Virus record (IMG/VR): IMGVR_UViG_3300030329_002238
DNA: 64,000 nucleotides
Reading direction: 5' to 3' (one strand)
Source of the DNA: an uncultured virus (IMG/VR IMGVR_UViG_3300030329_002238)
Taxonomy: Duplodnaviria > Heunggongvirae > Uroviricota > Caudoviricetes
Both the position numbers and the translations under genes were made by a program. The notes under the pieces were generated by a model. The model searched no databases, was not told the DNA's origin, and was given only the letters and a program-made list of their open reading frames with translations. Positions 31,062 to 51,937 of the stretch are shown in pieces; the first letter of the stretch is position 1, and each line of letters opens with the position of its first letter.

Positions 31062-32639
31062 TTATTTCTCCTTTAATTTATCTTCTAATTCTTCGACTTT
31101 AGCCGAAAGTTCTTGTACTGCTTTGACCATTAAAGGCATTAAAGCTGCTTCACCAACTCTTTGTCTACCATCTAATTCATCTTCGCTCCACATATCAAAG
31201 CCATCTTTTAAGTCATATCTGTCTATAACTTCTTTTACTTCTTGAGCAATAAAGCCATGATTATATTTACCATTTGCGGCTCTTTTTTCAGATCCTTCTT
31301 TATAGGCTCTCAATGTTTGTGGTATGTCTTTTTCTTTTTTCCATCTGAAAGTTACAGGTCTTAAATCGTTTATAAAATCTAGTCCAATTACTTCGTCTTG
31401 TATATCCTCTTTTAATCTAATATCAGAAGGGTTAGTCCATGTGGTGCTATTAAACTCACATTTTGTATCATAAGAACCACTGCCAAAAACAAAGCTTGAA
31501 GCACCTCCACCCCCAACATCTTTACCTATAACTATTTCGTCATTTACACCTACCGCAGATGTCGCTGCACCCACACCAATAAGGATATTTCTTGAGCCTG
31601 TCGTAGTGCTACTTCCCGCACCTTTACCAAGACAAGTATTATCATCCCCAGTAGTTAAAGCTGTAAGTGTACTGCCTCCAACAGCAGTATTTTGAAATGC
31701 TCCAGCCAAACTTGAACTAGATGCTATGTTATAACCTATAAATACGTTTTGATAACCTGCTAATGCTCCTGTATTACTAGAAGCTACATTCTGTCCAATA
31801 GCTATAAGCTGTGATGTACTAGCTGAATCAACAACCGCTCTACCTGCATAGGGACCTATTGCAATGTTTCCATTTGCACCTGTAGTTTGTCTAACTAAAG
31901 CATCATATCCAATAGCCATATTGTCAGAAGAACCACTTTGAGCAGTAAGTGCTCTATAGCCAATTCCCATGTTTCTACTATTGTTTGTTGAGGCTAAAGC
32001 CTCTGTGCCAACAGCCACGTTGTCTTCCACAGTAGATGCAGTAGACAAAGCATTGTACCCTATGGCGACCATGTTATTACCAGTACTAACAGCAGTAAGA
32101 GCACCAAATCCTAGTGCCGTATTTTTATCGCCGGTAGTTAATGCTGCAAAAACATCTATACCTACAGCCGTGTTATAGTTTGCTCCACTTATAGTTCCTG
32201 TAGTAGCATCTCCAAGCATAATTGAAGAAGTACCAAAAGTTTTAGCATCAGATAAATCATTTATTGAACTTGCACCACCAGCTGCATCTTCCCAAGCTAC
32301 ACCTGAACCTGTTGAAGTTAGTACTTGGCCATCACTACCTTGTCCACCATTAACTTTGAAGTTTTCACCATCTACAAGTGCTGCATAAAAGTTTTTGTAT
32401 TTTAAACTTGCTGTTCCTAAATCTATTTGATTGTCTGTAACAGGGGACAATGCACCATCACCTATGGTTAATCTATTAGAACCACCAGTAGCGATAGTGA
32501 TTACATCTGAACCACTAAATGTTATTGACGTATTTGAATCGGCATCACCTTCTATAGCATCTAATGAAATAGTGCCTACATCGCTGATGTCTAGGTCTCC
32601 TACGCTAAATAATTCTCCTGGTATTTTTGTTAATGCCAT
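31062..32639 (-). CDS. Tail fibre with C-terminal peptidase S74 intramolecular chaperone
   Basis: NTAVG/NTALG beta-roll repeats; SDIRLKEDI...LRPVTFRW...GFIAQEV...LMVKAVQEL. Confidence 0.88.
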   Translation of the reverse strand: MALTKIPGELFSVGDLDISDVGTISLDAIEGDADSNTSITFSGSDVITIATGGSNRLTIGDGALSPVTDNQIDLGTASLKYKNFYAALVDGENFKVNGGQGSDGQVLTSTGSGVAWEDAAGGASSINDLSDAKTFGTSSIMLGDATTGTISGANYNTAVGIDVFAALTTGDKNTALGFGALTAVSTGNNMVAIGYNALSTASTVEDNVAVGTEALASTNNSRNMGIGYRALTAQSGSSDNMAIGYDALVRQTTGANGNIAIGPYAGRAVVDSASTSQLIAIGQNVASSNTGALAGYQNVFIGYNIASSSSLAGAFQNTAVGGSTLTALTTGDDNTCLGKGAGSSTTTGSRNILIGVGAATSAVGVNDEIVIGKDVGGGGASSFVFGSGSYDTKCEFNSTTWTNPSDIRLKEDIQDEVIGLDFINDLRPVTFRWKKEKDIPQTLRAYKEGSEKRAANGKYNHGFIAQEVKEVIDRYDLKDGFDMWSEDELDGRQRVGEAALMPLMVKAVQELSAKVEELEDKLKEK

Positions 32640-32643
32640 AATA

Positions 32644-34542: not shown

Positions 34543-34543
34543 G

Positions 34544-34588
34544 TTATGCGTCCTCTAATGTTTTAATTCTAGCTTCTAGTTCTTGTAT
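34544..34588 (-). pseudogene. Remnant C-terminus of an S74-type tail fibre
   Basis: Reads IQELEARIKTLEDA* one base out of frame, overlapping the last base of the 885-aa fibre stop. Confidence 0.7.
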
Positions 34589-37245
34589 TATCTTACCAAC
34601 CATTCTTCAACTGAGTCTGAGACATCTCTCATTTTTATCCAGTTAGTTCCTGTTTGTTGTCCTTTCTTCATTCTTAATTTACCCATCAAACCTACTGTGT
34701 CCCATTCTTTTCTATTTTCTCTTTCTACATAAGTTAGTGAGTCATTATAACTAGCATTTAGCTTTCTTCTCATTAATGTATTGCCTTTATCATCTTTTGT
34801 TCTGCCGTCTGCTGCTGTATAAGTTTCCATAATATATCTTCCGTAGTCATCTTTCTCGTATTTGTCAGCCCATCTAGTATACGCTGCATCTCCTACTACT
34901 GCGGGATTTCCAGAGATAACTCCTATAATATTATCTGCTGAATCACTACCCGTAGCTTCTCTTATTTTGTTTCCATCTAAAACAACTGATAAGCCTATTC
35001 TATCTTGTGAACTGGCATTGCCATCAGACCACTCAAAATACTCTGCATAGTCAGCTCCTCCTCCTGTCCAAGAGCCATCTGCATAAGCCTCACCATCACC
35101 TCTAAGTTGGAATTCTAAATCGCCACCACCGTTATCAGCTCGTCTTCCTGAGTACAAATTAAAGAATTTATAAGCCGAACTTCCGCTTCTTTCCACCCCA
35201 AAAACGGATTGTGGATCAGCAAGACCAGTATTCATTATATACTGTGTATTAGTTGTAGTAGTATTTACTATGGATAATTTTCCTGCATCATAGTTCTGTG
35301 TCGTACTAGTTCCTAGCCCTACGTGTCCACTAGAAGCAATACGCATAGCTTCATCTAAAGTTGTATCATCTTGAGAAATGTAAAAAGCTAAAGCTGCATT
35401 AGCAACGCTATCATTTCCATCTTCTTTTAATCCTGCTATAGCAGCACCAGTTATAGGGTTTGTTTCATCATCTGGTATTTGAAACTCTAATCTTGGTCCT
35501 GCTCCTGCCCCACCATTTGCACCTGTACTAGCATATTTTGTTGCAAGAGTAAGAACTGTATCAGGAGAGGTTGTAGTATCACTAGATAAATTTGTAAGAA
35601 TATCTAATGGAACACTAGGACTTGCAGTTCCTATGCCTACGTTTCCACCATTAAAATATGAAGCTCCATTAGCATTGAAAACATTTTTTAAATTGCCTTG
35701 AGAATATTGTCCTACCCAATTATCATCAACACCAGTACCACTAGAAGCACCTGCTCCTAGAAACATTAAAGTTTCATCATTTGATTCAATTCTAAATCCA
35801 TTAGTTGCACCTTCTGTTACAAGAACCATATCTCTTGCAGGGCCCGTAGTACCAAAACCTACCCTTCCTGTGCTTCTAAATACTACAGAATGAGTTGAAC
35901 CTGCATCTTTACTAAAATATAAATCACTATATTGTATTAATAAGTTACCAGTGCCAGTATCTGTTATATATGAGTCAGAACCATCGTGATAGATTTGTAA
36001 ATCACCACCAGATGCCGAGCCTATCTCTAGTTTAACATTATCATTTAATATAAGATCGCCAGTCATTGTGCCGCCTGCTAAAGGTAAGTAGTTGGTTGCT
36101 ACTTCTTCGGCCCAAGAGATGTCTGTACCATCAGAGGTTAATACAGTTCCGGCAGATCCAACGGTTAGTGCAGCAGGGTTGCCACTACTATCACCATATA
36201 TTATTTTTCCACGAGCAAGTCCCGCCATCTTCGCCAAAGTTACCTGATCATCTGCTATCTTCGCGGTCGTTACAGCGTCATCTACTATAGAAGCTGTTAC
36301 TACGGCACTCGAAGCGAGCTGATCTGCACCTACAGCATCGTCCGCGATCTTAGCTTGTGTAACATTATCATCAACTATTGATGCTGTTACTACTGCACTC
36401 GCAGCTAATTGGTCAGCTCCTACTGCATCATCAGCAATTTTAGCTTGTGTAACATTGTCATCTACAATTGATGCTGTTACTACAGAGTTAGAAGCTGGTG
36501 TATTAACTTCTGTCTGTGTATGAGTTATACATTCAATAGCAACTCCACTAGCGGGGGCTGTAGAAAATGTTAATGTAGTACCAGATACAGAATAAGTACT
36601 CTTATGTTGATACACACCATCGAGGAATACCATGGTGTTGTTCTCATGTAGTGGGTCTGTACCTAAAGTAAATGTCGTGTCTGAGCCGTCTCCAGTAAAA
36701 TTATTCTGAGATAAACTATCTCCATTAACGGCGGCAGTTATGTTATATACAATTATTTCCCTGCTGTTTGCTGGGGCGGCAGAAAACGTTAGGGTAGTAC
36801 CACTTACACTATAAGCACTCTGTGTTTGGAAAACACCTTCAATAAATACTATTAAATCATTTTCAGTAGCTGGTGCTTTACTTAGAGTAAAAGCTGTAGT
36901 TGATCCATCTCCAGTAAATGCCTGTCTTGTAAAGGCATCAGACATAGCATCGTTTACTACATCTGTTAGTAATGCAGCATTTAGCCTTAGCTCTATATCA
37001 TCTCCTGAAGACCAGGCCCTAGCTGTAGTATCATCTTGGGCTCTTACTACAGTCCAATTAGTACCCGATACAGCTGTAACTTTAACTACTTCTAAGTTTG
37101 TAGCATCATCTAAAGTAGCATAGAAATAATCTGATCCACTCAATGAGGGGAAACCAGAACTACTTGCTACTGGTATAGTTGTTACACTGTTATTTATTCC
37201 AGAAGATATAGTAGTTTTAGCGTTGTTTGTATATTTAACGCCCAT
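34588..37245 (-). CDS. Tail fibre with C-terminal peptidase G2/IMC-type autoproteolytic domain
   Basis: FTGDGSTT repeats, GNVGIGT; GADYAEYFEW...IIGVIS...RKEWDTVGLMGK. Confidence 0.85.
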   Translation of the reverse strand: MGVKYTNNAKTTISSGINNSVTTIPVASSSGFPSLSGSDYFYATLDDATNLEVVKVTAVSGTNWTVVRAQDDTTARAWSSGDDIELRLNAALLTDVVNDAMSDAFTRQAFTGDGSTTAFTLSKAPATENDLIVFIEGVFQTQSAYSVSGTTLTFSAAPANSREIIVYNITAAVNGDSLSQNNFTGDGSDTTFTLGTDPLHENNTMVFLDGVYQHKSTYSVSGTTLTFSTAPASGVAIECITHTQTEVNTPASNSVVTASIVDDNVTQAKIADDAVGADQLAASAVVTASIVDDNVTQAKIADDAVGADQLASSAVVTASIVDDAVTTAKIADDQVTLAKMAGLARGKIIYGDSSGNPAALTVGSAGTVLTSDGTDISWAEEVATNYLPLAGGTMTGDLILNDNVKLEIGSASGGDLQIYHDGSDSYITDTGTGNLLIQYSDLYFSKDAGSTHSVVFRSTGRVGFGTTGPARDMVLVTEGATNGFRIESNDETLMFLGAGASSGTGVDDNWVGQYSQGNLKNVFNANGASYFNGGNVGIGTASPSVPLDILTNLSSDTTTSPDTVLTLATKYASTGANGGAGAGPRLEFQIPDDETNPITGAAIAGLKEDGNDSVANAALAFYISQDDTTLDEAMRIASSGHVGLGTSTTQNYDAGKLSIVNTTTTNTQYIMNTGLADPQSVFGVERSGSSAYKFFNLYSGRRADNGGGDLEFQLRGDGEAYADGSWTGGGADYAEYFEWSDGNASSQDRIGLSVVLDGNKIREATGSDSADNIIGVISGNPAVVGDAAYTRWADKYEKDDYGRYIMETYTAADGRTKDDKGNTLMRRKLNASYNDSLTYVERENRKEWDTVGLMGKLRMKKGQQTGTNWIKMRDVSDSVEEWLVR

Positions 37246-39085: not shown

Positions 39086-42000
39086 CTACCAAAGGGTGTA
39101 GTATACAGGAACTTGTTCCTTCCAGAATCTTGAATCAAGAGGACCATATTTAAATAGGTCGAAAACTTTACCAGAAGTAGGACCTAATATATCTGCCCCT
39201 GTTTCATACGGCCCACCAAAACTATGATCACCAGGTAGTAATGGGAAAAGTATCCCAAAAGCCCCCAAAATTCCACTCCTATCAATAAGCTCCGCAAACC
39301 ATGTACCCCAATCCATATTATCCGTGTGAAAGTGTTGATCCTTCATCTCTACTCCAGGTAATGGTCCAGCTAATACATATTTAATCCATTCTTTTAATTC
39401 TAGCCCCATTATAGTTAAAGGTAAAACAGTAAAAGCCATCATAGTTAAAGGAACAGCGGCCCCTCCAATACCTTGCTCTCTAAACCTATTTTTTATCTCT
39501 CTATATTGCCCCATAACTATAGTTTGCCCATATGCATAGAAGAAACCTTTAAGCTGCCAAACTAAAGCAAAATAAGGGTTACTAGCCCATGTAGGTCTTT
39601 GAGCTGCATTAGGTCTAATTATTGATTCATTAACAAATTGATAAATAGCTTGAGATGCTTTTTCACCTTCAGGAGTATTAAAATCAAACCCACTTTTCTC
39701 CCAAGCCAATACTTCTGCCCTTGTTATATTAAGCTGTTCTAACCAACGGTCAGTAGTTACCCTATCAGTTAACACATCATGTGCAGTACTAACTAAAAAT
39801 CTTTTACCCATACCTGCAGCAAATACCCTAGTAAACCTAGTGAATTGATCTAACATTATTGCTTTAAAGAAATAGTCTGTTAACCTTTTGGAGTTAGGGG
39901 TCATATAATCCATTTCAGCTGCATGTATATACATCATAGATAATGAATCTTGAGTAATGGCACCAACATCTAAAGCAAACTGTACTGCTGCATCTTTATC
40001 ATTAAAATATTGTCTATACTCTTTAGCCGCATTTTGAAAAGAATTAAAAGAATTACTACGTAAAAGTGGACCAGCTAAATCTGGAAAAGACGCAAGTACA
40101 GCAAAAGTTAAAGTTGTAAATACGTTTGCAGCTATTCCCCAACTATTAATTTTTCTAGCTAAAGGGTCCATAGGAGTACCAAGTTTACCTAGCATTGCTC
40201 TTATAGCTTCCCTAGCTTTAGGCTGCTGGTGGGGTTCAAGTTTGCTAATTTTACTCTCAAACCACGCTGCACCACCCACTCTTTCGTACTCTACTCTTTT
40301 AGTAATAGCCCTTAAGTAATTCATGGTTGCTGTAAAACCATCTTCTAGTACACCTATTTCTCTTAATTCACTAGTAGCAAATCCATAGGCTTTGTAAATT
40401 GGGTTACCGTCCTCATCAACTTGTTCAACTCCGTTTTCATTCACAGCTGGTGAAATTTCATACTTCATAGTACGGGCTAATGCATTAGGTAGCCCCAACT
40501 TAATAGATTTAGAATCTATATCTTGCTCATGTTTTGATAATGCATCAGTAAGATTATCATTTGGGTCTCTACTAAGTATATCTAAAACAAATAATTCAGC
40601 CCATTCTTCAGGTGTAACCCTCTGCGCTTCTACGCCTTCAGGTGTCCTAAGCCCCTCATAAACTACAAGACCATCTATATCTGGTCTTATTTCCCCTCGC
40701 GTCCCTTTGTTACTTTTTATACGCCCTTCTCTTAGTTTATTTGCTACATAATTAACAAAAGCATTTCTAAGACCATCATCATTTGCCATATCCCATACTT
40801 TTAATGACCTACTAAAATAACTAGCAACACCAATTTCTTTACCTTTTCTATCTCTTAATATAGTTTCAAGGAACTTGGGTGAATCTTCAAATTCAACTTC
40901 TTGCAAATAAGGATATAATACGTTCCTTTTCCACATCCTTAACTTATGCCCCATAGGACTTAATTTAGAAAGTTTTTCATCTGAGATTCTTTCATCTTCT
41001 GCATAGGCAAATGCCTTATCATGTTTCTCAGTAAACTGCCTACTAAACATCCTGTTTACATCTAGTTCAAGTATCTTAGCTAGTTGATTATTGAACTGAG
41101 AGAACTTTCTATCTTTGGCATCAAGTAATCCTAATTCTTGACCTTTTTCTGCTACTGTTCTTGATCTACGTTGTATTCTATTCGCCATCTCCCTGCCTAC
41201 AGGGTTACCTTCTTTATCTTTCATACGCCCCAAAAAACTAGAAGCAGGTTGAACAATTTTTGCGAGGAATGAAGCCCCATTAGGATTATTTCTAACAATC
41301 TCGTTATATTTCTTAGCTGTTTCTTTTCTTACAGTTTTCCAAGCAGCTTTTGCTAAACCAAAATTATTTCTTTCTGCCTCAACAACTTCTTCAACCATGT
41401 TAAACAAGTGTTCTTTTTCTTCAAATCCTAAATAACCCCGCTGAAATTCAAGGTTCTTTGTTGCCTTAAATGACTTAGCTAAATCATCTGCAAACTCATT
41501 GAAAGCTTCACTAGGAACAAATCTCCCTGCAAAAATCTTATCTGCTGCTACACCTTCCATAAGTTTAGTCCAAGCTCTTTTTATTTTATTTGCTAATCGT
41601 GCAAAAAAACCTTCTGCAAAATTTTGAGGTTTAGTTTTTCTACCGTCCCTAAGAGTTTTTATTAACCAGGCTGCAGTTTGATCAGCGAACCACTCTTCAA
41701 AACCTTTTGTTTGATCTTCGACTCTTCCAGGCTCCTCGTTCCTATATCTAGTGTTAAGAGGTTGAGCTGCTTTAAAGTCTTTCCATATTTTTTCTTTTAC
41801 GCCCTTATTAAAATGTAAACTGTCTAACTCGTTAAAAGCTATAACGTGCCCAAGCTCATGAGCTAAAGCGATCATAACCTGTGCAGAACCTAATAGATCT
41901 TTTTGAGTTTTATTTAATTTAGCATAATCATCTGCTCGGATATTAGAGGGTCTCCCTGTTCTTGCAGAATATGTATCTATTACAATAATATACTCCTTGT

Positions 42001-45000
42001 CCCCCCTCATCTTAAAGGTCGCCCCTCTTTGGCCCCATTTATTTTTCTGTTTCTCCTTCCATAATTTATTTAAAACTCTTTCTGTCTTACCATCCCTATA
42101 TAGAAGCTTTAATAATGCATCTTCTCTTTTACGCTTAGTATTCCACTCTGGATTAATGTCATCGTAAGTTAAAAAAGTTAGGTTTGCTTTTATACCAAAA
42201 AATTTAAATTTCTTAAGAAGAGCTAACATAGGCCCACTATATTTACCCATAGACTCTTTGAATGCTTTACTAGTACTAACAAGTTGTTTACCTGCCTCCC
42301 TAGTATCTTTTGTGCCTATTGCGTCTTGGTCTACTCTTAAGCCCCCTATAAGCCCCTCTTTTACATATTCTGGTATAAAGCTCCTAGAAGATGCTTGTAA
42401 AGAACCTGGGTTTAACTTTTCACTAAGCCTTATTTGTGCTCTAAACTCTGCTTCTCTTTTTGCTGTTGGCATGTCTGAAAGCTCACCTAGAATTGAATCC
42501 GCTATTTCTGGATCAGATTCTCCTGTATCTGGATCCATTTCTATATCTTGTGTATTTATTGAATAGCCGTTTTTTTCAGCATAGTCTTGTAGTGTTACTA
42601 TTATAAATTTATAGTCTTCAACGCTGTCTACAATTGTTTCACCTGGCGTAAACTCATTAGTAGGTTGAAGATATATAGTCTCCGGAGATAACTTATCTAT
42701 ATCTGGCATTATTTCAACATACAGAGGTTTATACTGCTCCCAATTAGTATTTAAAACATTTTCATCACTATTTTTACCCCAAGAATTTTCTATAATTTCA
42801 TTTATTTGTTTTTCTCTGTTTTCTGATATTTCTCTAGGTCCAGCTATATTAACTGTGTCTATATTATGGGCTTTTAACCACACCCATATTTTTTCCTGAC
42901 TTTGAGGATTAACTAAAGTGGGCTTACCGAGCTCCCTAGCTTTTCTTATAGTGTAACCAGTTCCAGGAGTTATACCCGATCCATCACCTTCAGTAAAAAC
43001 TAAAGTTCCATCACTATTTATAATATTTTTATCGGTACGATCGTTATAGTTATCACTTTCTGCTTCTTCTAAACCAAGATCTTGTAGTTTCTTAGCATGC
43101 GTTGCTGGATTGGTGGCAGCACTCCTATACCCTAATGGGGCCGTGCCACCAGTCTCTATTCCTACTTTTTTAGCTGCATTTAACCCTATAAAATCAACGC
43201 CTGTTTGCCCACCACTAATAATTTTGCTAGGTTTTATGGCTTTGCCCCGGCTTTCTATTGCGCTCCTTGTCTCTTCAAGTGACTCCTTCCGGCGCTCTGC
43301 AAACTTATCATTTACTTCCGTTTCTAAATCTTCATAAGCCTGAAAATTACCCCATATTATACCGTCCAACTTTGTTAGAGGTACTTCACCTGTCTGAAGT
43401 TGTTCATTAACTATAGTATGCATAAGGGCTCTTATTTGTTCTCTATAATTTTTTATAGTCTCTAGACCTATGGCGTCAGCCGGTAATTTACCAGTTATAC
43501 CATACAAGTCAGCAAATGTAGCTCGTTTACCTAGTTTATAGTTAGAAGAAACTGCAGCCCTAGATTGAAGAAATATTTCTGGTGTAGCGTCTACAAGAGC
43601 TACAGAAGGAAGTAATGTATCCGTATCTTTATATTCTTTTTCTTCCTGTTTAGAAAGTTTTTTAAACTTATGGGTGTATAGTGGGTCATTACTATATCCA
43701 AAAGGTTCCTCTTGTTTTTTTAATTTAGTATCATGTATATTGGCATACCAACGCCCCGGTCTATAGTCTGCGTAGTTTACAGTATCAGTTTGTTCATAAA
43801 ATTTTACCCCATTCAGTCTATACTCATTATATTGTAGATGTGGTTGCTTCTGCTTTTCTAAAGTTTTAGGATAAGGGTTTTCTGTCCATTCAACATAAAT
43901 CCCGTGATTACCTACTAACAACCTAGAAAATTTAGGACCAAATATTTCTTTAAGTCGTGCTTTTATACCAGCAGCAACTTTTATAGTTGAATTGTCTTTT
44001 TGTATAGTAGCTTTTTTTAAAGTGGGGTAAGATCTTTTTAAGCCCTCTAAATGGGTTTTTCTTATACCTAAATTTATTTCTTCTATTTCTGCTTCAGAGT
44101 ATTCTTCTAAATATTTTAACCTATGTATAAAGCGCTGGTACAGTGGAACACCTCTATCTCCACCACCAGTTCTACCACCATACATAAACATGTTTGTATA
44201 GAAGTCGTTATAATCGAAGTGAATATAGTTTAATTCTTCAAATGCATCAAAAGCTTCTCTTTGGCTATTAAAACCTTCTGCCTTAAAGTCTTCTTTAATA
44301 ATCTCTTGAACTTTCTTTTGTTTGGGTTCCTCTATTAATCTATATAAACCAGCGTCTTTATCTTTTGCTATTCTAAATACATCTCCTTTCTCTCCTAATT
44401 TAGAACGCCTAGAAGTCATAGTTTTTTTACCAGATTTAACTAATTCCGCTGGCTCTGTAAAAGAAACTACAATTTCTTTTGTAGTGCTGGGCTTACTAGG
44501 TCTTACCCTAAAATCATATCCATATTTAGCTCCTAAAGCTAATACCGTCAATAAAGATGCCTGTCTAAAATCTCTATCCCCCTCTATAAACTTACCAAGC
44601 ATGTTACTTTGATTGACTGTAGTACCATACTTAGCAAATCCTAAAGGCATATGAATAATTTTTTCCTCTGCCCTAGAAAAGTTTTGTAATTTTTCATCGT
44701 AGGCTTTTTCTAAAAATAGAACTCTTTCAACAAACTCTGTTTTTATATCTTTCCTTCTTCTATCTTTTTTAGCTTTTTTAAACTCTGAAACTACTATTCC
44801 TTCTATACTTTCTCTTTCTGTTTTCTCTCTAAATTCTAAAGCTTTGTCTTCCGCCTTTTTTTTGCCTTCAGGAGTAAGCATAGTAAAGAAAGCTTCTCCT
44901 CTCATTCTTTCAGCGTCTGCATCTGTTTCTTTACCACTTACAGTAGCTGCGGCAAAAAACCTCTTAGTGAACTCTTCCTCAGTGATTGGTAACGGGCCCC

Positions 45001-48000
45001 TCTTTGTATTTGAATAGTCCATAATAAGATTACTTTCTGGACTAGGTAAGTATTTTATTACAAAGCCTAACTTGTTTTTAGCAAAGCCAAATTGCTCTGC
45101 TATAACAGGGTAGGTATCAATTACATGCTCTAAATTAAAACGGTTATGTGTGTTTTTTATTTCATTTACTGCATTTACAAACTCTTCTTTTATTGCTTTT
45201 TTTCTTCTGTCTTTTCCTTCACTCTTAAACTGTCTAATTACTTCTTCTTTAAATATCCTGTCTTTTATTTCTGGTTCATCTTCTTTTTTAGTCTTATTCA
45301 CCTCCACAAAATGCTGAGGTACAACCGTGTATCTAATAGCCTGGCCCTCATGGGAATCTATTAATCTTATTAATCTATTTATAAGACCTTGGGGTAGTTT
45401 TACACCCAATCTGGACTCAAGTGCATTTAAATCTGCTGATTCTTCTGGTTGTAGTCTTTCTCTTAAAGCTATTCTACTGTCTGTATATGCCTGATATGCT
45501 CCTTCTACTTTTTTAGCGGCTTCTTCATTAAAGGGTAGCCACGGGTTGCCATTTTGATTAATAACTTCCACCCAAGAATTTGGTTCTCTTGTAGACATAC
45601 CTTCTTCAGTTTCATCAACAAAACCCCCCTCTTCTTCTTGTACTTGTTGTTCAGCAACTCCTGCTGCTGTGTCATCTAATTCTTCTTGAGCTCGCTCTGC
45701 TTTAGTTTTTGCTACTCCTTCTATATCTTCTTCCAAAGACTCAGTGGGTTTTTTGGCTTTTTCAGCTTCTGCCTCTTCTTGCTGTTGTAGAGCAGCTTTA
45801 TATTTACGTAGGACTCTAGAATCTAATAGAGATACATCATTTACTGGCTCCCCTTTTCTTTCTAAAGAAGCAATAAGTTCTTTTTGTATAGGTACAAGTA
45901 TTTCCTTTATACGCTTTTCTAGAGTTAATTTTAAAGGTAATAGACTTTTTAATACCTGATCAAAATTACCCCCAGTTAAATTTTTATATATTTCTATTAA
46001 TACAAGTGGGTCATCCCAAAAAGATTCTACTACTCTACCTATTTCGTCTGCGTTTTTAGCAGCTTTTATTCTGTCTAAAGCGTTTTCAGTTCTTACCCTA
46101 GTAAAATCATCTTTATTTTCTTTTGTGTTATTTCTTTCATATGTGTCTTCTGCTATGTCTTCAGTGCTATAAGGACCCTCTATTTCTACAAGATTTTCTT
46201 CTATGCCCTTTTTAAAAAGAGCTTCTAAACTCTGTTTAGTTGCTTCTTGGTCAGCTGCATTAGTTAATTCTGTATGTACATATTCACCACCATCTTTCCA
46301 CCTAACTCTAAAACCTCTATCGTCTGCTGAGGTTAAAGGTCTTAGATAATTAAGAGCTGCAGCTATAGACTCTTTACCTGGGTCATCCACAAACTCATCT
46401 ACTTTCCTTTTATTTAAAGATATTAAAGTACCAACACCTTCTACCGCACCCACGTGTACTTTTCTCCCACCATAAATCTTATTTAACTCTTTCTGGGTTG
46501 GAATTACTTGATTTGGTGGAAGATACACTGAATCTTTAGCAAGGCTAGTTTCAAACAAAGAAGATATTTGTCTTCTTATATCTTTTACTGGTTCAGGGAT
46601 ACTCTCATTAGGTCCTTTAGTCCAATCAAATTCAGTAAACTGTTTAGTATCTAAAAAAGATAAATCAGGCATAACCACCGGTTTTAGATTCAAGTCTTCT
46701 TCAATACTAATATCGGTACCAAATATTTTTTTACCTGTTTCTTTACCACCAAACAGCGCGGATATAGTTCTTACAGCAGAAGAAGCCTTTTTATATTGTG
46801 CTTTACTATTAAGGGCAGAATCAAAATCAGGATTTATACCAAATAAATCCAATTGCTCCATCTCTCCTCTAGCCCGTTTTGCTTTTCTTTCTGTCCGTCT
46901 TTCTTTTCTACCTAATAAATCTTGAGTTCTATTAACAATCCTTTCTACACTAGAAGACACACCTCTACCACCACCAGCAAATACACCACCACCTACAATA
47001 CCTTTAAATGAAGCCGTTAGTAAATCCATTCTGGCTTGTTCCCTGTCATATTCTGGATCTATAGAAAGTTTTTGTGCAATCGTCATACTTTCTTGAAGGG
47101 TTTCAGCAGTACCTTCAGATACAGCTCCCGTAGCAAAACCTTTAGCTGTTTGTACCCCAACCTTACTGAGATCATTTAAAAGGGCCATATATATAGGAGC
47201 CTCGGCTCCACCTTTTGCGGCACGTTTCTTAGCTATTTTTGTAATATGATCTGTTAGGGGTTTTATAATTGCTCTACCTGCAACTAACTCTGAAGTTATT
47301 CCAACTGCTGCGTATGGACCAAAACCTACTGCAGCACTTATAGCCGCTTCTCTAGGTGAAGTCATATCTTGCCTAGCAAACTCACCAAAAGTTACACCTG
47401 TTCCCTGTCCACCCTCTTGTAAATAAGCTCCCGCTAATCCCCCCATTCTTGTTCTACGTTTCCAACCAGGTTGTCCAGCAAATTTCTCTAGTAATTTTAA
47501 TTGGTCCCCCCTAAATTTATCATCATAAGTTCCTTTTAAATCTCTTAATCCTTTTCTTTTATTTTTCCAAGAGTCTTTTACAATATTTAATAAAGCCTTT
47601 TTACCAGGTCCAGATATAGCCTGTGTTAGCCCTAATCTAGCTCCCGCCCAAGTAGCCGTCCCTGTAAGGAGACCACCAGTTACCGCGGGGACCCCCGCAA
47701 TACCTGCTATAATAGCTCCTGTAGTTGCCGCAGCTAAACTCGCCACTATTGAAGGAGCAAACTCACCCGTAGCTATTTTTGCCTGTTCTATAAAACCATC
47801 TACTGTTGGGGCATTTAAAAAATCTTCAACTGTAGGTAACCCCTGCATATATTCACCAGCAATTTCTTCCCAAAATAGGGCTTCCTGTAGGGATTCATCT
47901 AGTTCTTTTTCATCACCTGTTATAGCTTGGAAAGCAGCATCTAGATAATTTATATTAGCTCGTACGCTAGCAGCACCAGACGAGACAGCACGAGAAAAAG

Positions 48001-48115
48001 TACCCGCTCCACCGCCAGATGGGCCTTTTTCAGGGGTTCCGATTCTTTGATCTAGTAAAGTTTGATTAAGATCATTAAGAGCGCTAATGTCAAAAGAGTA
48101 TTCTTCTTTCGCCAC
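39086..48115 (-). CDS. Giant polyvalent internal virion (ejection) protein: ASCH, SLOG cpYpsA, zincin peptidase
   Basis: VKSGKKTMTSR...AEGF (ASCH); KIISGGQTGVD...RTDKNIINSDGTL...NIAGPRE (cpYpsA/MoCo-carrier-like); AHELGH...EEWFAD. Confidence 0.85.
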   Translation of the reverse strand: MAKEEYSFDISALNDLNQTLLDQRIGTPEKGPSGGGAGTFSRAVSSGAASVRANINYLDAAFQAITGDEKELDESLQEALFWEEIAGEYMQGLPTVEDFLNAPTVDGFIEQAKIATGEFAPSIVASLAAATTGAIIAGIAGVPAVTGGLLTGTATWAGARLGLTQAISGPGKKALLNIVKDSWKNKRKGLRDLKGTYDDKFRGDQLKLLEKFAGQPGWKRRTRMGGLAGAYLQEGGQGTGVTFGEFARQDMTSPREAAISAAVGFGPYAAVGITSELVAGRAIIKPLTDHITKIAKKRAAKGGAEAPIYMALLNDLSKVGVQTAKGFATGAVSEGTAETLQESMTIAQKLSIDPEYDREQARMDLLTASFKGIVGGGVFAGGGRGVSSSVERIVNRTQDLLGRKERRTERKAKRARGEMEQLDLFGINPDFDSALNSKAQYKKASSAVRTISALFGGKETGKKIFGTDISIEEDLNLKPVVMPDLSFLDTKQFTEFDWTKGPNESIPEPVKDIRRQISSLFETSLAKDSVYLPPNQVIPTQKELNKIYGGRKVHVGAVEGVGTLISLNKRKVDEFVDDPGKESIAAALNYLRPLTSADDRGFRVRWKDGGEYVHTELTNAADQEATKQSLEALFKKGIEENLVEIEGPYSTEDIAEDTYERNNTKENKDDFTRVRTENALDRIKAAKNADEIGRVVESFWDDPLVLIEIYKNLTGGNFDQVLKSLLPLKLTLEKRIKEILVPIQKELIASLERKGEPVNDVSLLDSRVLRKYKAALQQQEEAEAEKAKKPTESLEEDIEGVAKTKAERAQEELDDTAAGVAEQQVQEEEGGFVDETEEGMSTREPNSWVEVINQNGNPWLPFNEEAAKKVEGAYQAYTDSRIALRERLQPEESADLNALESRLGVKLPQGLINRLIRLIDSHEGQAIRYTVVPQHFVEVNKTKKEDEPEIKDRIFKEEVIRQFKSEGKDRRKKAIKEEFVNAVNEIKNTHNRFNLEHVIDTYPVIAEQFGFAKNKLGFVIKYLPSPESNLIMDYSNTKRGPLPITEEEFTKRFFAAATVSGKETDADAERMRGEAFFTMLTPEGKKKAEDKALEFREKTERESIEGIVVSEFKKAKKDRRRKDIKTEFVERVLFLEKAYDEKLQNFSRAEEKIIHMPLGFAKYGTTVNQSNMLGKFIEGDRDFRQASLLTVLALGAKYGYDFRVRPSKPSTTKEIVVSFTEPAELVKSGKKTMTSRRSKLGEKGDVFRIAKDKDAGLYRLIEEPKQKKVQEIIKEDFKAEGFNSQREAFDAFEELNYIHFDYNDFYTNMFMYGGRTGGGDRGVPLYQRFIHRLKYLEEYSEAEIEEINLGIRKTHLEGLKRSYPTLKKATIQKDNSTIKVAAGIKARLKEIFGPKFSRLLVGNHGIYVEWTENPYPKTLEKQKQPHLQYNEYRLNGVKFYEQTDTVNYADYRPGRWYANIHDTKLKKQEEPFGYSNDPLYTHKFKKLSKQEEKEYKDTDTLLPSVALVDATPEIFLQSRAAVSSNYKLGKRATFADLYGITGKLPADAIGLETIKNYREQIRALMHTIVNEQLQTGEVPLTKLDGIIWGNFQAYEDLETEVNDKFAERRKESLEETRSAIESRGKAIKPSKIISGGQTGVDFIGLNAAKKVGIETGGTAPLGYRSAATNPATHAKKLQDLGLEEAESDNYNDRTDKNIINSDGTLVFTEGDGSGITPGTGYTIRKARELGKPTLVNPQSQEKIWVWLKAHNIDTVNIAGPREISENREKQINEIIENSWGKNSDENVLNTNWEQYKPLYVEIMPDIDKLSPETIYLQPTNEFTPGETIVDSVEDYKFIIVTLQDYAEKNGYSINTQDIEMDPDTGESDPEIADSILGELSDMPTAKREAEFRAQIRLSEKLNPGSLQASSRSFIPEYVKEGLIGGLRVDQDAIGTKDTREAGKQLVSTSKAFKESMGKYSGPMLALLKKFKFFGIKANLTFLTYDDINPEWNTKRKREDALLKLLYRDGKTERVLNKLWKEKQKNKWGQRGATFKMRGDKEYIIVIDTYSARTGRPSNIRADDYAKLNKTQKDLLGSAQVMIALAHELGHVIAFNELDSLHFNKGVKEKIWKDFKAAQPLNTRYRNEEPGRVEDQTKGFEEWFADQTAAWLIKTLRDGRKTKPQNFAEGFFARLANKIKRAWTKLMEGVAADKIFAGRFVPSEAFNEFADDLAKSFKATKNLEFQRGYLGFEEKEHLFNMVEEVVEAERNNFGLAKAAWKTVRKETAKKYNEIVRNNPNGASFLAKIVQPASSFLGRMKDKEGNPVGREMANRIQRRSRTVAEKGQELGLLDAKDRKFSQFNNQLAKILELDVNRMFSRQFTEKHDKAFAYAEDERISDEKLSKLSPMGHKLRMWKRNVLYPYLQEVEFEDSPKFLETILRDRKGKEIGVASYFSRSLKVWDMANDDGLRNAFVNYVANKLREGRIKSNKGTRGEIRPDIDGLVVYEGLRTPEGVEAQRVTPEEWAELFVLDILSRDPNDNLTDALSKHEQDIDSKSIKLGLPNALARTMKYEISPAVNENGVEQVDEDGNPIYKAYGFATSELREIGVLEDGFTATMNYLRAITKRVEYERVGGAAWFESKISKLEPHQQPKAREAIRAMLGKLGTPMDPLARKINSWGIAANVFTTLTFAVLASFPDLAGPLLRSNSFNSFQNAAKEYRQYFNDKDAAVQFALDVGAITQDSLSMMYIHAAEMDYMTPNSKRLTDYFFKAIMLDQFTRFTRVFAAGMGKRFLVSTAHDVLTDRVTTDRWLEQLNITRAEVLAWEKSGFDFNTPEGEKASQAIYQFVNESIIRPNAAQRPTWASNPYFALVWQLKGFFYAYGQTIVMGQYREIKNRFREQGIGGAAVPLTMMAFTVLPLTIMGLELKEWIKYVLAGPLPGVEMKDQHFHTDNMDWGTWFAELIDRSGILGAFGILFPLLPGDHSFGGPYETGADILGPTSGKVFDLFKYGPLDSRFWKEQVPVYYTLW

Positions 48116-48116
48116 A

Positions 48117-50336
48117 CTAGTCTCTCCAATTTGGGTCTATGCTAAAGTAGGCCAGTAAACTTTTTTCGGCCGCATCACCAAAAAACTTTTTCATATTGTC
48201 TGCAGTAAATCGTAAAGGTGGGCCTGTTCTATCTTCCCCCATTCCACTCAAATTAAATCCAAATTCAACTAATTCCCCATTGCCATTATATTTAGGGGTA
48301 ATAAGAGATAGAACCCCATTTAATCTTGAGTTTACATAATCTCCTGTTGGGTCCATCCCCCACCATCTAGCCCACGCCTTCCTAATTGCGCCTTTAGAAT
48401 TGTTATAATTATGATAAGCAATATTCATCATAGCTTGGGCTATATAAACAGATGTACTCCTTAAAGCTAAGCGGGCTTCTTCATACCCGGGATCCCCCGG
48501 TTTTAAAGTCCCATCCAGTATACTTCGAGAATATAGAGACGCCTTATTCATTTTATCTGTTAGAAATCCTTGGGCTTCTGGGTTTTGTCGAAAATCTACT
48601 GCATATTTATTAACTATATTGCTATTATCTGGGTCTGTTCCATAGAACACTTTCATCCATCTCTCACCCTCATCTCCATAGGCATCATCCTTAGCTAACT
48701 CATAGATATCTTTTTGGACGGCCTGATTTAATGTCGTTTGAGCGTTATGAACTCTGGTTCTATCAGTCATAGATTCAAAAGACACAAACGGCTCGCCCCT
48801 AATAACTCTGTTATAAAGCACAGCCATATTATCATTTGCTATATCCATTATTTGGGATGCACCTGTTGGACCATAAACTGCAGCTACATCAAAAGCAGCC
48901 TCACGTGCAGCTAACTCTGCAACTTGAAAGGCTTCTTGGGCAGTTAATTTTTTAGATGTAATAAATTCATTTAAATTAGTTATACCCTTCTTTTTAAGCA
49001 TTTCTTGAAGTTCTTGGTCTTTTATTCCCTGTAAACTATCTTTATAAGTATCAGATTGCTTAAAGTTTCCAGACTGACCACTTTCCATAAAACTAACAAA
49101 TTCATCAAAATCTTCTTCTGTAAAGAAATTTGCTACCGCGCCAGCATCGATTTGTTCCCCTTCCTTGGTATTAGTGCTAGTTTTCTTACCATTATGCTCA
49201 CTATTACTTTTAGGCATAGCCTCATACGCTAAGTCATCAAGTTTTTTTCTAGTTCTCTTTATCTGTCTAAGAGCCGCCATATGTAAGGCACTTCCAGGAT
49301 CTGGATGTTTATTAAGTTTTTCCTCTGCTTTCTCTAAATCTAACATTAACTTGTCATACTTATCTTTTGCGGTAGGAGAGGACGTTATATAGTCTATAGT
49401 TTTACCAAGTAGAGTATCTTTAAACTCTCTATCAACTCTAGTTGATACTTTTCCTTGAGCATCTGTTTTAGTATAAACCATTCTTTGAGGATCAAACTCC
49501 CACCCATCTGCTATTAATTCATCATAACTTTTAGGCTCAATAGGTTCAGAAACTGTTGTAGCAGGAGTAGGTGTTGGTGTTGGTGTCGGTGTAGGACTAT
49601 CAGTAGTAGGTTGTTTATCATCTACTGCAATCTGCCAATCATCTAAATAAGAATTAAAAACTATTCTTTGTTCATCTGGACTTAAAACAGAAAACTCCGG
49701 AGAAAGAGCTAAATCAGCCCAGCCAGCCGCTCTCTGCGCCCATTCTATATCTGCTGCAGCATTTCGATATTCCTTTTCTGCTTTCATTCCTTTTATAGTG
49801 GCTATATATCCAGGTTGAGCTTTCTCTTTCTTTAACATAAGCTCTACACCAATCATCTTTTCTAAATTTGATAAACTTATAGGCATAGGTGGCTCTCCAA
49901 CTAAACTACGTTCAGATATAGTGGCAGGGCCATCTTCTTGGTTTCTAGTTATTATAAATTTTTCCCCGTTGGGGGCATCTTCAATTCTATCTATAGTGCT
50001 TTGTTTTATAGTGGGTTGACCATCAGGGCCTGTATTTACTTGGTCTACATATCTAAGCATAGTTTTGTATAACGTAGAATTTTTACCTGCAATTTCTTTA
50101 AGATATGCATTAGATTGATGACTCCCATCAAATAATCTAGCGGTAGGTCTATAAGTTAGGTTAGATGCATCCCATTCAATATATGCACCCCCACCATCAT
50201 CCATCATAGGTCTATCAAACCACTTATTAGCCTCATCTCGTTCTTTCTTGGCTCTGGCTTCTGCCCCCATAGCACGAAGCTCCCAGAAGTTTTTACTTCC
50301 CCACGCTCTATCAAAAATTGCTCCTGGATCTGACAT
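48117..50336 (-). CDS. Probable internal virion/ejection protein
   Basis: Position between adaptor genes and the giant protein; PT-repeat linker. Confidence 0.6.
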   Translation of the reverse strand: MSDPGAIFDRAWGSKNFWELRAMGAEARAKKERDEANKWFDRPMMDDGGGAYIEWDASNLTYRPTARLFDGSHQSNAYLKEIAGKNSTLYKTMLRYVDQVNTGPDGQPTIKQSTIDRIEDAPNGEKFIITRNQEDGPATISERSLVGEPPMPISLSNLEKMIGVELMLKKEKAQPGYIATIKGMKAEKEYRNAAADIEWAQRAAGWADLALSPEFSVLSPDEQRIVFNSYLDDWQIAVDDKQPTTDSPTPTPTPTPTPATTVSEPIEPKSYDELIADGWEFDPQRMVYTKTDAQGKVSTRVDREFKDTLLGKTIDYITSSPTAKDKYDKLMLDLEKAEEKLNKHPDPGSALHMAALRQIKRTRKKLDDLAYEAMPKSNSEHNGKKTSTNTKEGEQIDAGAVANFFTEEDFDEFVSFMESGQSGNFKQSDTYKDSLQGIKDQELQEMLKKKGITNLNEFITSKKLTAQEAFQVAELAAREAAFDVAAVYGPTGASQIMDIANDNMAVLYNRVIRGEPFVSFESMTDRTRVHNAQTTLNQAVQKDIYELAKDDAYGDEGERWMKVFYGTDPDNSNIVNKYAVDFRQNPEAQGFLTDKMNKASLYSRSILDGTLKPGDPGYEEARLALRSTSVYIAQAMMNIAYHNYNNSKGAIRKAWARWWGMDPTGDYVNSRLNGVLSLITPKYNGNGELVEFGFNLSGMGEDRTGPPLRFTADNMKKFFGDAAEKSLLAYFSIDPNWRD

Positions 50337-50339
50337 AAT

Positions 50340-50963
50340 CTATATAAATTTTGAAACTACACTTGTTATTAAACCACGCCTCGCATTTTTTTCATTTGTT
50401 TTAGCATTTCTATACGCTTGTTCTTGAGCTACTTGCATACTACTTAATGCAGAAAGCCCCTCCATTGCTTTGCCTAATGCTGTATTAGCCCAAGCCCCCA
50501 CGGCGAAACTTTTACCTATACCTCCTATTTTATCAGCAAACCTTGAAAGATTTGTTGCATTAACTATTCCTAATTGTTTGTTTCTTTGTCCTTGTGCATC
50601 TATCTCTCTAGCTTCAGCTGCAGTCGTCTGTATTCCATACCTTTCTAAGTTTCTTCTATCTATACCGGCTTGTCTATTTCTAGCAATCTCGTCTGCTCTT
50701 AAAGCTTCTTCAGTTGTGCTTTCCTCTATAGAGGCTAATAACTCTTGTTCAATTTGTGGACCACCAAGCTCTTGATAACTGTCACTTAACCTTTGAGAAA
50801 TTTGTTCTTGTGCGCTTTTAGGATCAGAAATACTTGGTGTATCATTTTTATAACCTTTATATACTGTAGTTTGGTAGTTTGTTGGCATTGTACCCATAGC
50901 CTTAGGTCCCTTACTAACATAGGTCTGCGCTCTTTTCATTACATCTGTTTCTACTGGTAACAT
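50340..50963 (-). CDS. Probable internal virion protein
   Basis: Synteny; helical, Ala/Gln-rich. Confidence 0.55.
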   Translation of the reverse strand: MLPVETDVMKRAQTYVSKGPKAMGTMPTNYQTTVYKGYKNDTPSISDPKSAQEQISQRLSDSYQELGGPQIEQELLASIEESTTEEALRADEIARNRQAGIDRRNLERYGIQTTAAEAREIDAQGQRNKQLGIVNATNLSRFADKIGGIGKSFAVGAWANTALGKAMEGLSALSSMQVAQEQAYRNAKTNEKNARRGLITSVVSKFI

Positions 50964-50966
50964 AAT

Positions 50967-51512
50967 CTAATCACCCCCCCAGTCCCACTTTGTAGGGTTA
51001 AAGCCACTTGTAGCAACCTGGCTCCCTATAGCCCCACCTATTCTAGCTATACCCCCTAATCTAGAAGCATAGTCAGAAGACTTTCTAGCCCCCTCACCAA
51101 GTATTTGCTGTTTCCCAAGCTCAGCTAAATTTACCATACCCATTTGACCAATACCTTGACCACCTTTTATAAGGTCTAAGTAACCAAGTCTATTCTGGAA
51201 CTTCATATTCTGCCCTTGGTCATGAGCGGCCATCCTAGTTGCATACTCTAGTCTTTGTTGAGTCGGCGTTAATAGGTTTCCTGTAGATACATCACCGTAA
51301 CTTAATTTAGGACTACCCTGAGCATAATCCCCCATAGCTTTATCTTGTAATGTTTGTGAAAAGTCTTCTTCAATCATTCCGCGTAAGCCTCTTTTTACAG
51401 CTAAGCCCAATTTTTCTGCTTGCTCTGCATCCCTTTTAAAAGTACCCGCCGCTCTTTTTTGCGACTCACTAAACTGAAAATCTGCTCTTCTTGCTTTCTT
51501 TTTATTGCCCAT
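50967..51512 (-). CDS. Probable internal virion protein
   Basis: Synteny; Gly-rich C-terminus. Confidence 0.55.
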   Translation of the reverse strand: MGNKKKARRADFQFSESQKRAAGTFKRDAEQAEKLGLAVKRGLRGMIEEDFSQTLQDKAMGDYAQGSPKLSYGDVSTGNLLTPTQQRLEYATRMAAHDQGQNMKFQNRLGYLDLIKGGQGIGQMGMVNLAELGKQQILGEGARKSSDYASRLGGIARIGGAIGSQVATSGFNPTKWDWGGD

Positions 51513-51514
51513 AA

Positions 51515-51937
51515 CTATAAATCCTTTCTATATGTATAACTAACTAATTTAAAACCGTGCTTTGGAGCAATTTTTTGCCAGCCTGGCCTACTTGTTTCAA
51601 ACTCGATATTATCAGCTTTGAGTTCTTCTGCAAGCCTATCCAATAATTCATAACCATGTTTTGACTGGTTATATTTAGGGTCTTGATAAGCTGCCAAGAC
51701 AAATAAGGTGGGACCTCCCCCAATGTTAGGGTGGTTCTCAGTAATAATAAATCCGATGTTTTCATCTCCTTCATAAGCTATATATAAATCTGCTTGCTTA
51801 GTTTTTAAACCAACATATACGTCTGCTGGTAACCAATCAGAATTACTTTTTTTAACTATATACCTTAATTTCTCCTCTATCTCTTCATAAACAAATTGTA
51901 AGTCATCTACATGTATCTTACTAAACTTAACAGCCAT
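51515..51937 (-). CDS. GNAT-fold-like head/tail assembly protein
   Basis: GFII...LFVLAAY...R.GW......GF pattern; synteny. Confidence 0.55.
   Translation of the reverse strand: MAVKFSKIHVDDLQFVYEEIEEKLRYIVKKSNSDWLPADVYVGLKTKQADLYIAYEGDENIGFIITENHPNIGGGPTLFVLAAYQDPKYNQSKHGYELLDRLAEELKADNIEFETSRPGWQKIAPKHGFKLVSYTYRKDL

What the first reader, a model, noticed from the sequence alone, without database searches (positions are those of the whole stretch)
41680..44480. Effector stack inside the 3009-aa ejection protein: ASCH, unknown domain, SLOG cpYpsA, zincin
Seen: ASCH-like segment (~44477-44224), cpYpsA/SLOG domain (~43226-42830) and HELGH...EEWFAD metallopeptidase (~41864-41682), in a gene at the podovirus ejection-protein position. 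Established: phage polyvalent proteins combine such domains, with zincin peptidases proposed to release them; SLOG domains bind or process nucleotides; ASCH binds nucleic acids or modified nucleosides. Inference: an injected anti-defence toolkit acting before phage transcription, possibly against nucleotide or NAD-derived signalling.
Basis: partly seen in the sequence, partly recalled or inferred. Interest (0 to 1): 0.75.

Follow-up and report, generated by a model that had tools for sequence, protein, structure and literature searches.

The report
Swappable cargo in phage ejection protein
A marine bacterial virus has a giant protein, probably injected with its DNA, whose fixed frame carries swappable nucleotide-handling parts, including one unnamed domain that usually travels with ADP-ribose-processing enzymes and may be a new tool against bacterial immunity.

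Summary
cpYpsA SLOG is above the Pfam cut-off. ASCH is divergent (below cut-off), but five weak tests agree and its catalytic residues are kept. The zincin is not cargo: HExxH occurs in 101 of 106 relatives at a fixed place. ASCH and the unknown domain occur in only 3 of 106 relatives, SLOG in 4. The unknown domain (aa 1321-1466) is a real mobile family: 231 clusters, no consistent Pfam, PHROG, NCBIfam or PDB match, a confident model with no clear solved fold. 18 of 41 longer carriers also hold NADAR, SLOG or DUF4326. A 97.7%-identical sister protein has a 141-aa NADAR-like domain right behind it. 4 of 4 independent marine runs carry an insert of that length at that spot. Best reading: a polyvalent ejection protein with interchangeable cargo against ADP-ribose/NAD-type defences. 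Packaging, cleavage and every activity are inferred. The design is known (Iyer 2017, 2022), and this scan noted SLOG/NADAR cassettes in other giant virion proteins. The unnamed domain and strain-level cassette swapping are the new parts.

The parts
39086..48115 (-). 3009-aa polyvalent, probable large ejection protein (whole gene)
   Evidence: ORF; C-terminus matches PHROG 30152 virion structural protein, E 1.6e-16 and KPP25 ORF088 'structural protein'; 106 relatives
46856..48115 (-). Conserved N-terminal frame (aa 1-420), Gly/Ala-rich with a hydrophobic stretch at aa 123-141
   Evidence: blastp match in 93 of 106 relatives; hydropathy. Some relatives carry a muralytic domain in front (P0006 lysozyme aa 15-132, P0089 SLT aa 12-88); the window protein has none
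44171..44488 (-). ASCH-like domain (aa 1210-1315), Thr-type octapeptide; K1231, T1234, R1236, E1280
   Evidence: in 3 of 106 relatives
43718..44155 (-). Unnamed mobile domain (aa 1321-1466; here 'VNYADY domain'): three helices plus a Tyr-rich beta core
   Evidence: 231 cluster representatives at E<=1e-3; model pLDDT 91.7; no consistent library match; in 3 of 106 relatives
43709..43725 (-). Empty cassette slot: sister alleles carry a 141-aa NADAR-like domain here
   Evidence: P0001 (97.7% identical) and P0115 have the insert; 4 of 4 laid runs have 440 letters in place of these 17
43241..43705 (-). Spacer M3 (aa 1471-1625), probably the continuation of the frame interrupted by the ASCH-VNYADY cassette
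   Evidence: P0003's equivalent scores 11.3 bits on a cargo-poor frame profile against at most 2.5 for 20 shuffles; the window's own copy does not beat its shuffles (0.6 vs 2.9)
42800..43228 (-). cpYpsA-family SLOG domain (aa 1630-1772), motifs intact
   Evidence: Pfam above cut-off; PDB 3imk alignment; in 4 of 106 relatives
42311..42769 (-). Acidic, fast-changing spacer M4 (aa 1783-1935)
   Evidence: 34% and 19% identity to P0002 and P0003, against 65% and 53% for SLOG; no family match
41486..42310 (-). Zincin-like metallopeptidase module of the conserved frame (aa 1936-2210; HELGH 2086, EEWFAD 2140)
   Evidence: HExxH in 101 of 106 relatives, 858+-62 aa from the C-terminus; frame profile matches aa 1936-2210, E 7e-61
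39089..40315 (-). Conserved C-terminal domain (aa 2601-3009) with a hydrophobic helix at aa 2887-2905
   Evidence: used as part of the search query, so found in 106 of 106 by construction; PHROG 30152/6958; hydrophobic helix in 5 of 5 proteins checked
48117..51937 (-). Upstream genes of 739, 207 and 181 aa and a GNAT, after portal, capsid and two SU10-type adaptors: probable partner ejection proteins
   Evidence: gene order; likeness to the T7 gp13-16 order is recalled, not tested

Best explanation
This is the large ejection (internal virion) protein of an uncultured marine podophage related to Kochitakasuvirus KPP25, built as a fixed frame with cargo slots. SHOWN: the frame (N-terminal membrane-like region, zincin module, C-terminal domain) is shared by nearly all relatives. 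The cargo (ASCH-like, VNYADY, cpYpsA SLOG, and in sister alleles a NADAR-like domain) is restricted to few lineages and is gained or lost as whole in-frame domains between proteins 97% identical. INFERRED from gene position and homologues: the protein is packaged and enters the cell with the DNA. INFERRED from family knowledge and from the domains it travels with: SLOG, NADAR-like and VNYADY act on ADP-ribose or NAD-derived marks and signals of host immunity. NADAR would strip ADP-ribose from guanine, as phage AdfN does against DarT1. SLOG would bind or cleave a nucleotide signal. VNYADY would bind or process a related nucleotide in a conserved Tyr/Glu/Gln pocket. The ASCH-like domain would be an amidohydrolase or binder for acylated cytidine in RNA or nucleosides. 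MOST SPECULATIVE: the zincin cuts the protein during head maturation or after entry to free these parts.
For: Frame versus cargo. The clade with ASCH+VNYADY+SLOG has 100% bootstrap support in a neighbour-joining tree of 35 C-termini. Whole-domain indels in near-identical pairs: P0001/window 97.7% (+141 aa), P0015/P0017 97.5% (+132 aa NADAR-like, +141 aa second domain), P0048/P0049 96.9% (+137 aa). 4 of 4 runs from 4 studies carry 440 letters for 17 at window 43709-43725, net 141 codons. Cargo is better conserved than its spacers (SLOG 63-65%, ASCH 54-58%, VNYADY 54-58% versus 34-37% in P0002/P0115). VNYADY partners: 18 of 41 scanned carriers over 200 aa hold NADAR (10), cpYpsA (7), YAcAr SLOG (1) or DUF4326 (1) at E<=1e-3. 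The partner lies within 90 aa in 16 of 21 co-carriers. Vibrio phage pVa-21 gp150 is VNYADY plus YAcAr SLOG (E 2e-5, below cut-off). Virion context. Lytic domains in front of relatives. Literature: polyvalent proteins and zincin processing (PMC5512222); viral SLOG/NADAR predicted to counter ADP-ribose signals (PMC9503650); phage NADARs shown to reverse DarT1 (PMC11825919); ASCH residues and ac4C activity (bioRxiv 10.64898/2026.02.27.708502).
Against: No direct evidence of packaging or injection. The A1002 cryo-EM passages read name no ejection protein. The window protein lacks the NADAR-like domain, the only cargo type with proven counter-defence activity, and that insert is below Pfam's cut-off: not found in P0001 at E 0.01, and only E 0.009 (P0001) and 3e-4 (P0115) with a profile built from other NADARs. 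96 of 106 relatives show none of the five cargo types searched, so the cargo is dispensable. No PADLOC or NCBIfam match for any window domain. 23 of 41 VNYADY carriers show no NADAR, SLOG or DUF4326, and some are fused to helicases, UDG or DarA_C instead. Carriers are not phylogenetically independent, so the 18 of 41 is not a test statistic. ASCH has no known link to NAD defences. N4 vRNAP holds a zincin yet is packaged uncut. The host is unknown.
Confidence: 0.55

Rival explanations
1. The protein is injected, but the cargo serves the phage's own take-over rather than defeating immunity. SLOG senses nucleotide status, ASCH and VNYADY bind or edit RNA or modified bases (for example ac4C on tRNA), and together they tune translation, DNA pulling or early transcription.
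For: ASCH proteins remove ac4C from tRNA and bind nucleic acids. Iyer 2022 reads some SLOG fusions as sensors that regulate nucleic-acid enzymes. VNYADY is also fused to helicases, UDG and a kinase-like ATPase.
Against: Gain and loss between strains 97% identical fits an arms race better than a core function. NADAR and SLOG are the commonest partners of VNYADY.
Confidence: 0.2
2. The cargo is cut off by the zincin during head assembly, or never enters the next cell, and works late in the producing cell or not from the virion at all.
For: P1 DdrB is processed before packaging and holds a C-terminal zincin. VNYADY also exists as stand-alone genes in jumbo phages outside obvious head-protein clusters. 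Packaging was not shown here.
Against: The cargo lies between two conserved frame parts, so removing it needs two cuts. If late action were enough, stand-alone genes would do, yet these domains recur inside giant proteins (16 of 150 VNYADY hits exceed 1000 aa).
Confidence: 0.15
3. The inserts are tolerated passengers in a loop-rich region of a structural protein, with no present function.
For: Most relatives lack them; they come and go; the ASCH copy is divergent.
Against: Motifs are intact in SLOG and ASCH. Cargo is 15-30 points better conserved than its spacers. Seven VNYADY positions are invariant in 107 of 107 sequences. The compared inserts are whole and in frame.
Confidence: 0.07

Closest known systems
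Phage polyvalent proteins (Iyer et al. 2017, PMC5512222)
   Same: Large multi-domain protein among late virion genes, disparate domains in one chain, zincin with HExxH plus downstream Glu.
   Different: ASCH, SLOG, YpsA and NADAR are not named in that paper's main text (supplements unreadable). The VNYADY domain matches no LPD model in Pfam. Here the frame is an ejection-protein-like chassis, and strain-level cassette exchange is visible.
Viral SLOG/NADAR/Macro/DUF4326 ADP-ribose-processing network (Iyer et al. 2021 PMC7824862; 2022 PMC9503650)
   Same: YpsA-like SLOG coupled to NADAR, placed among virion genes, predicted to counter ADP-ribose-derived signals.
   Different: Those papers describe mostly stand-alone or small fused proteins; no passage read mentions this unnamed partner domain or ASCH.
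cpYpsA SLOG family (Pfam PF12694; PDB 3imk)
   Same: Above cut-off over 132 of 145 profile positions; N-terminal GGQTGxD loop and C-terminal NIAGPR shared with 3imk.
   Different: Embedded in a 3009-aa virion-type protein; ligand and activity unknown.
ASCH amidohydrolases (E. coli YqfB, PF04266)
   Same: K-x-x-T-x-R spacing of Lys21/Thr24/Arg26 and a downstream Glu (K1231, T1234, R1236, E1280).
   Different: Below Pfam cut-off; embedded; fold not confirmed by a good model; activity untested.
AdfN phage NADARs (anti-DarT1; PMC11825919)
   Same: A NADAR-like domain in sister alleles of this protein.
   Different: Compact divergent clade below cut-off, fused inside a virion-type protein, absent from the window's allele; relation to AdfN not tested.
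KPP25 ORF088 / PHROG 30152 virion structural protein (Kochitakasuvirus)
   Same: C-terminal domain 27% identical; same place in the structural operon; capsid protein 53% identical.
   Different: About 2000 aa, and the match covers only the C-terminal part; its role in ejection is not documented in the papers read.

Membership tests
cpYpsA SLOG (PF12694) | Score above Pfam gathering cut-off over most of the profile | tested here: met
   87.6 vs 26.2 bits, positions 1-132 of 145
cpYpsA SLOG (PF12694) | Homology to the solved member, with the glycine loop at the N-terminus | tested here: met
   3imk E 2.6e-13; GGQTG and NIAGPR aligned
cpYpsA SLOG (PF12694) | Nucleotide binding or cleavage | not testable with these tools
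   needs biochemistry
ASCH (PF04266 / YqfB type) | Score above Pfam cut-off | tested here: not met
   15.3 vs 21.2 bits; filed as ASCH-like, not as a PF04266 member
ASCH (PF04266 / YqfB type) | G-x-K-x-x-[E/T/S]-x-R octapeptide and downstream Glu | tested here: met
   G1229-R1236 and E1280, invariant in the 4-sequence alignment with P0261; residue roles
ASCH (PF04266 / YqfB type) | Beta-barrel fold | tested here: inconclusive
ASCH (PF04266 / YqfB type) | ac4C amidohydrolase activity | not testable with these tools
   needs assay
Zincin-like MPTase of polyvalent proteins | HExxH helix plus Glu on the next conserved helix | tested here: met
   HELGH 2086, EEWFAD 2140; HExxH in 101 of 106 relatives, strict downstream motif in 49 of 106; definition
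Zincin-like MPTase of polyvalent proteins | Three-stranded sheet with flanking helices | not tested
Zincin-like MPTase of polyvalent proteins | Self-cleavage | not testable with these tools
   needs virion MS or in vitro assay
Phage polyvalent protein | Several domains of disparate activity in one large chain, with MPTase | tested here: met
Phage polyvalent protein | Gene among late virion genes | tested here: met
   between adaptors/GNAT and collar-like/fibre genes
Phage polyvalent protein | Packaged and injected with DNA | not testable with these tools
   indirect only
Podophage large ejection protein | Homology to a structurally proven ejection protein | tested here: inconclusive
   whole-protein PDB search found only 3imk. 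By protein lengths, the A1002 counterpart of KPP25 ORF088 is not among the 11 outer proteins resolved (inferred), which fits an internal protein but proves nothing
LPD29 (PF18847), considered for the unknown domain | Profile match of family members | tested here: not met
   0 of 107 members at E<=0.1; earlier hints were E 0.18 and Atlas 0.88
beta-tent fold (CULT/Yippee/MsrB), considered for the unknown domain | Structural match | tested here: inconclusive
beta-tent fold (CULT/Yippee/MsrB), considered for the unknown domain | Zinc-binding cysteines (usual; absent in DUF427 and TCTP) | tested here: not met
   no Cys among the 19 columns conserved at 70% or more
NADAR (PF08719), for the sister-allele insert | Score above Pfam cut-off | tested here: not met
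   no hit on P0001; its 57-60% identical homologues in P0015, P0048 and P0116 score 22.7-24.8 vs 35.1 bits; called NADAR-like
NADAR (PF08719), for the sister-allele insert | Match to a profile of bona fide NADARs built without it | tested here: inconclusive
   E 0.0086 (P0001) and 3.2e-4 (P0115) for 300 sequences, over most of the profile

The most novel reading that the evidence does not exclude
The VNYADY domain is an undescribed viral effector with no solved relative, possibly a zinc-free beta-tent. It binds or cleaves an ADP-ribose/NAD-derived immune signal or DNA mark in a pocket of invariant Tyr, Glu and Gln residues. It moves as a cassette among podophage ejection proteins, other giant phage polyproteins, stand-alone jumbo-phage genes and a Pithovirus. 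The ejection protein is then a natural, strain-variable delivery rack whose cargo set maps which nucleotide defences the marine host uses.
Probability: 0.35. Interest if true: 0.78.

Novelty: new variant of a known kind. Interest (0 to 1): 0.55.

Why it matters
Counter-defence proteins that arrive with the DNA act before any phage gene is read, and few are characterised. This locus gives a small, well-folded, unnamed domain with a clear functional neighbourhood and stand-alone copies in cultured jumbo phages, so it can be tested at once. It also gives natural with/without allele pairs at 97% identity, showing that ejection proteins exchange whole effector domains within populations. The overall design was already predicted, which limits the surprise.

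Tried and rejected
LPD29 for the unknown domain: rejected. No match of VNYADY members in PHROGs (0 of 107) or PDB by sequence; the three VNYADY-only proteins scanned had none in NCBIfam or PADLOC; Foldseek against PDB gave nothing at E<=0.001. These blanks show no placement, not a new fold. Pattern scans of viral contigs with the unknown domain and with ASCH found no confirmed locus. The deep alignment was too variable for a pattern scan. Single-sequence PDB search with the ASCH segment gave only unrelated rows. DUF7831 as a Macro-like fold (recalled idea): no PDB support, so it is not counted as ADP-ribose-related. A NADAR-like look of the stretch after ASCH in L005 was not confirmed by blastp with the P0001 insert. 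That M3 continues the interrupted frame held for P0003 only, 1 of 4 proteins. The window's assembly is not held, and the nearest record did not cover the gene. Maximum-likelihood tree programs were unavailable, so the tree is neighbour-joining with 50 bootstraps and its deep nodes are unreliable. No proteomics for KPP25 or A1002 was found. The original SLOG paper (Burroughs 2015, recalled) was not held. An assembly artefact for the missing NADAR was considered. It is unlikely because 17 letters replace 440 rather than a clean cut and P0002 and P0003 also lack it. It is not excluded, since the only record with the window's exact allele (L003) may share its source. No complex prediction was run.
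Full report
1. What is in the sequence. The window is a marine podophage genome region. The capsid protein is 53% identical to that of Pseudomonas phage KPP25, genus Kochitakasuvirus. 20 of 24 listed runs hold half or more of the sampled words of the region; all are marine metagenomes, from 8 studies, and 3 are marked as possible sources. The gene 39086-48115 (-) encodes 3009 aa. It follows terminase, P22-like portal, capsid, two SU10-type adaptors, a GNAT and genes of 181, 207 and 739 aa, and precedes collar-like and fibre genes. Its C-terminus matches PHROG 30152 'virion structural protein' and KPP25 ORF088, deposited as 'structural protein'.

3. Frame and cargo. A search with aa 2200-3009 returned 106 relatives of 1772-3552 aa. 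By blastp the N-terminal 420 aa match 93 of 106 and the zincin segment 84 of 106, while SLOG matches 4, ASCH 3 and the unknown domain 3. HExxH occurs in 101 of 106. Its distance from the C-terminus is nearly fixed (858+-62 aa), while its distance from the N-terminus ranges from 873 to 2702. So the zincin is frame, and length varies in front of it. A profile from 13 mostly cargo-free relatives matches window aa 506-1062, 1174-1219 and 1936-2210. In P0003 the ASCH+unknown block sits between adjacent profile positions 558 and 565; this was not reproduced for the other three proteins tested. The proteins with ASCH+unknown+SLOG form one clade with 100% bootstrap support in a neighbour-joining tree of 35 C-termini. 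With my own profiles, which were partly seeded with these proteins, 10 of 106 relatives carry ASCH, VNYADY, SLOG, NADAR-like or DUF7831. Two relatives were shown to start with a lysozyme or SLT domain, and four more carry a precomputed SLT label. That is typical of ejection proteins (T7 gp16 likeness recalled).

4. A cassette slot. P0001 is 97.7% identical to the window protein but has 141 extra residues right after the unknown domain. P0115, from the sister lineage, has the same insert at the same place; P0002 and P0003 lack it. The inserts of P0001 and P0115 are 73% identical, against 59% and 36% for the flanks. This fits either exchange or repeated loss of a conserved enzyme. The insert is 57-64% identical to segments in P0015, P0016, P0018, P0048 and P0116. 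Three of these score on Pfam NADAR below cut-off, and a profile of bona fide NADARs finds the insert weakly. It is NADAR-like. The same toggling occurs in P0015/P0017 (97.5%) and P0048/P0049 (96.9%). I laid 4 of the 20 holding runs, from 4 studies. All 4 have a contig with 440 letters in place of window 43709-43725, net 141 codons. The letters were not shown, so its identity with the NADAR-like insert is inferred from place and length. The window's NADAR-less allele is matched by L003 (99.9%, no gaps), which may share its source.

6. Mechanism. Shown: frame plus exchangeable, motif-intact cargo. Inferred: packaging and injection, from gene position, structural-protein homologues and muralytic heads in relatives. 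By protein lengths, the Kochitakasuvirus counterpart is not among the 11 outer proteins resolved in A1002, which fits an internal protein without proving it. Inferred: the cargo works against ADP-ribose/NAD-type defences, from the predicted role of viral SLOG and NADAR, the proven role of phage NADARs against DarT1, the partners of the unknown domain, and the strain-level turnover. Speculative: release by the zincin; Iyer 2017 gives both processed (P1 DdrB) and unprocessed (N4 vRNAP) examples. Confidence 0.55; rivals are take-over or sensing (0.2), late action after cleavage (0.15) and passengers (0.07).

7. Known versus new. The design is a polyvalent virion protein, and SLOG/NADAR among virion genes was predicted. 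The scan's own notes record SLOG with NADAR-like or DUF4326 cassettes in other giant virion proteins (e1-6276053, e1-5890662; not checked by me). I found no paper on this combination in searches for polyvalent/SLOG/NADAR, ASCH/phage/polyvalent, cpYpsA, ejection protein/anti-defence and crAss/NADAR/SLOG. An unnamed domain cannot be searched well by words, and the Iyer 2017 supplements, which list 131 domains and could include it, were not readable.

8. Papers seen. PMC5512222: abstract, word search, sections Peptidases and Genomic contexts. PMC9503650: passages and section 3.7.4. PMC7824862: passages. PMC11825919: abstract and one results section. bioRxiv 10.64898/2026.02.27.708502: passages. 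PMC4287342: abstract and part 1 of the beta-tent section. PMC13730344: passages and the overall-structure section. PMC12870095: word search, no hits. All others: search listings only.

9. Verdict. Observation confirmed, interpretation partly supported. New variant of a known kind; interest 0.55, carried by the unnamed NADAR/SLOG-associated domain and the natural with/without alleles.

Noticed in passing
P0015 aa 1588-1728 (also P0016, P0018, P0106; L005 protein aa 1352-1475): A second unnamed mobile domain of about 130-140 aa next to the NADAR-like insert; absent from the 97.5%-identical P0017; 56% identical in the L005 giant protein; no Pfam hit there.
   Followed up: partly
L005:6809-16285: 3159-aa protein with VNYADY, DUF7831, the second unnamed domain, an ASCH-like domain and a superfamily-1-type helicase: a similar cargo set on another frame.
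   Followed up: partly
L010:5836-6261 vs L015: Stand-alone VNYADY gene in Salmonella phage SPLA1a; a 391-nt stretch holding most of it is missing from SPN3US at about 98.5% flanking identity.
   Followed up: partly
P0216, P0125, P0137, L007:2-11998, P0151: VNYADY also fused to uracil-DNA glycosylase, DarA C-terminal domain, an AAA_33 kinase-like domain, and a tubulin-like stretch.
   Followed up: no
window 3584-8005 (+): Early region with a MoxR-like AAA ATPase, an Nmad5 protein and a DUF2201 metallopeptidase-VWA protein.
   Followed up: no
window 31062-37245 (-): Three consecutive fibre-like genes with self-cleaving chaperone domains (two Peptidase_S74, one Peptidase_G2).
   Followed up: no
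window 21313-23505 (-): 730-aa late gene with no Pfam or PHROG match.
   Followed up: no
window 44108: In-frame 6-nt deletion at the start of the VNYADY domain in 3 of 4 laid runs.
   Followed up: no
P0080, P0099, P0104: Other cargo in more distant relatives of the frame: DUF7831 plus a weak DprA-type SLOG, a staphylococcal-nuclease label, and LPD23.
   Followed up: no
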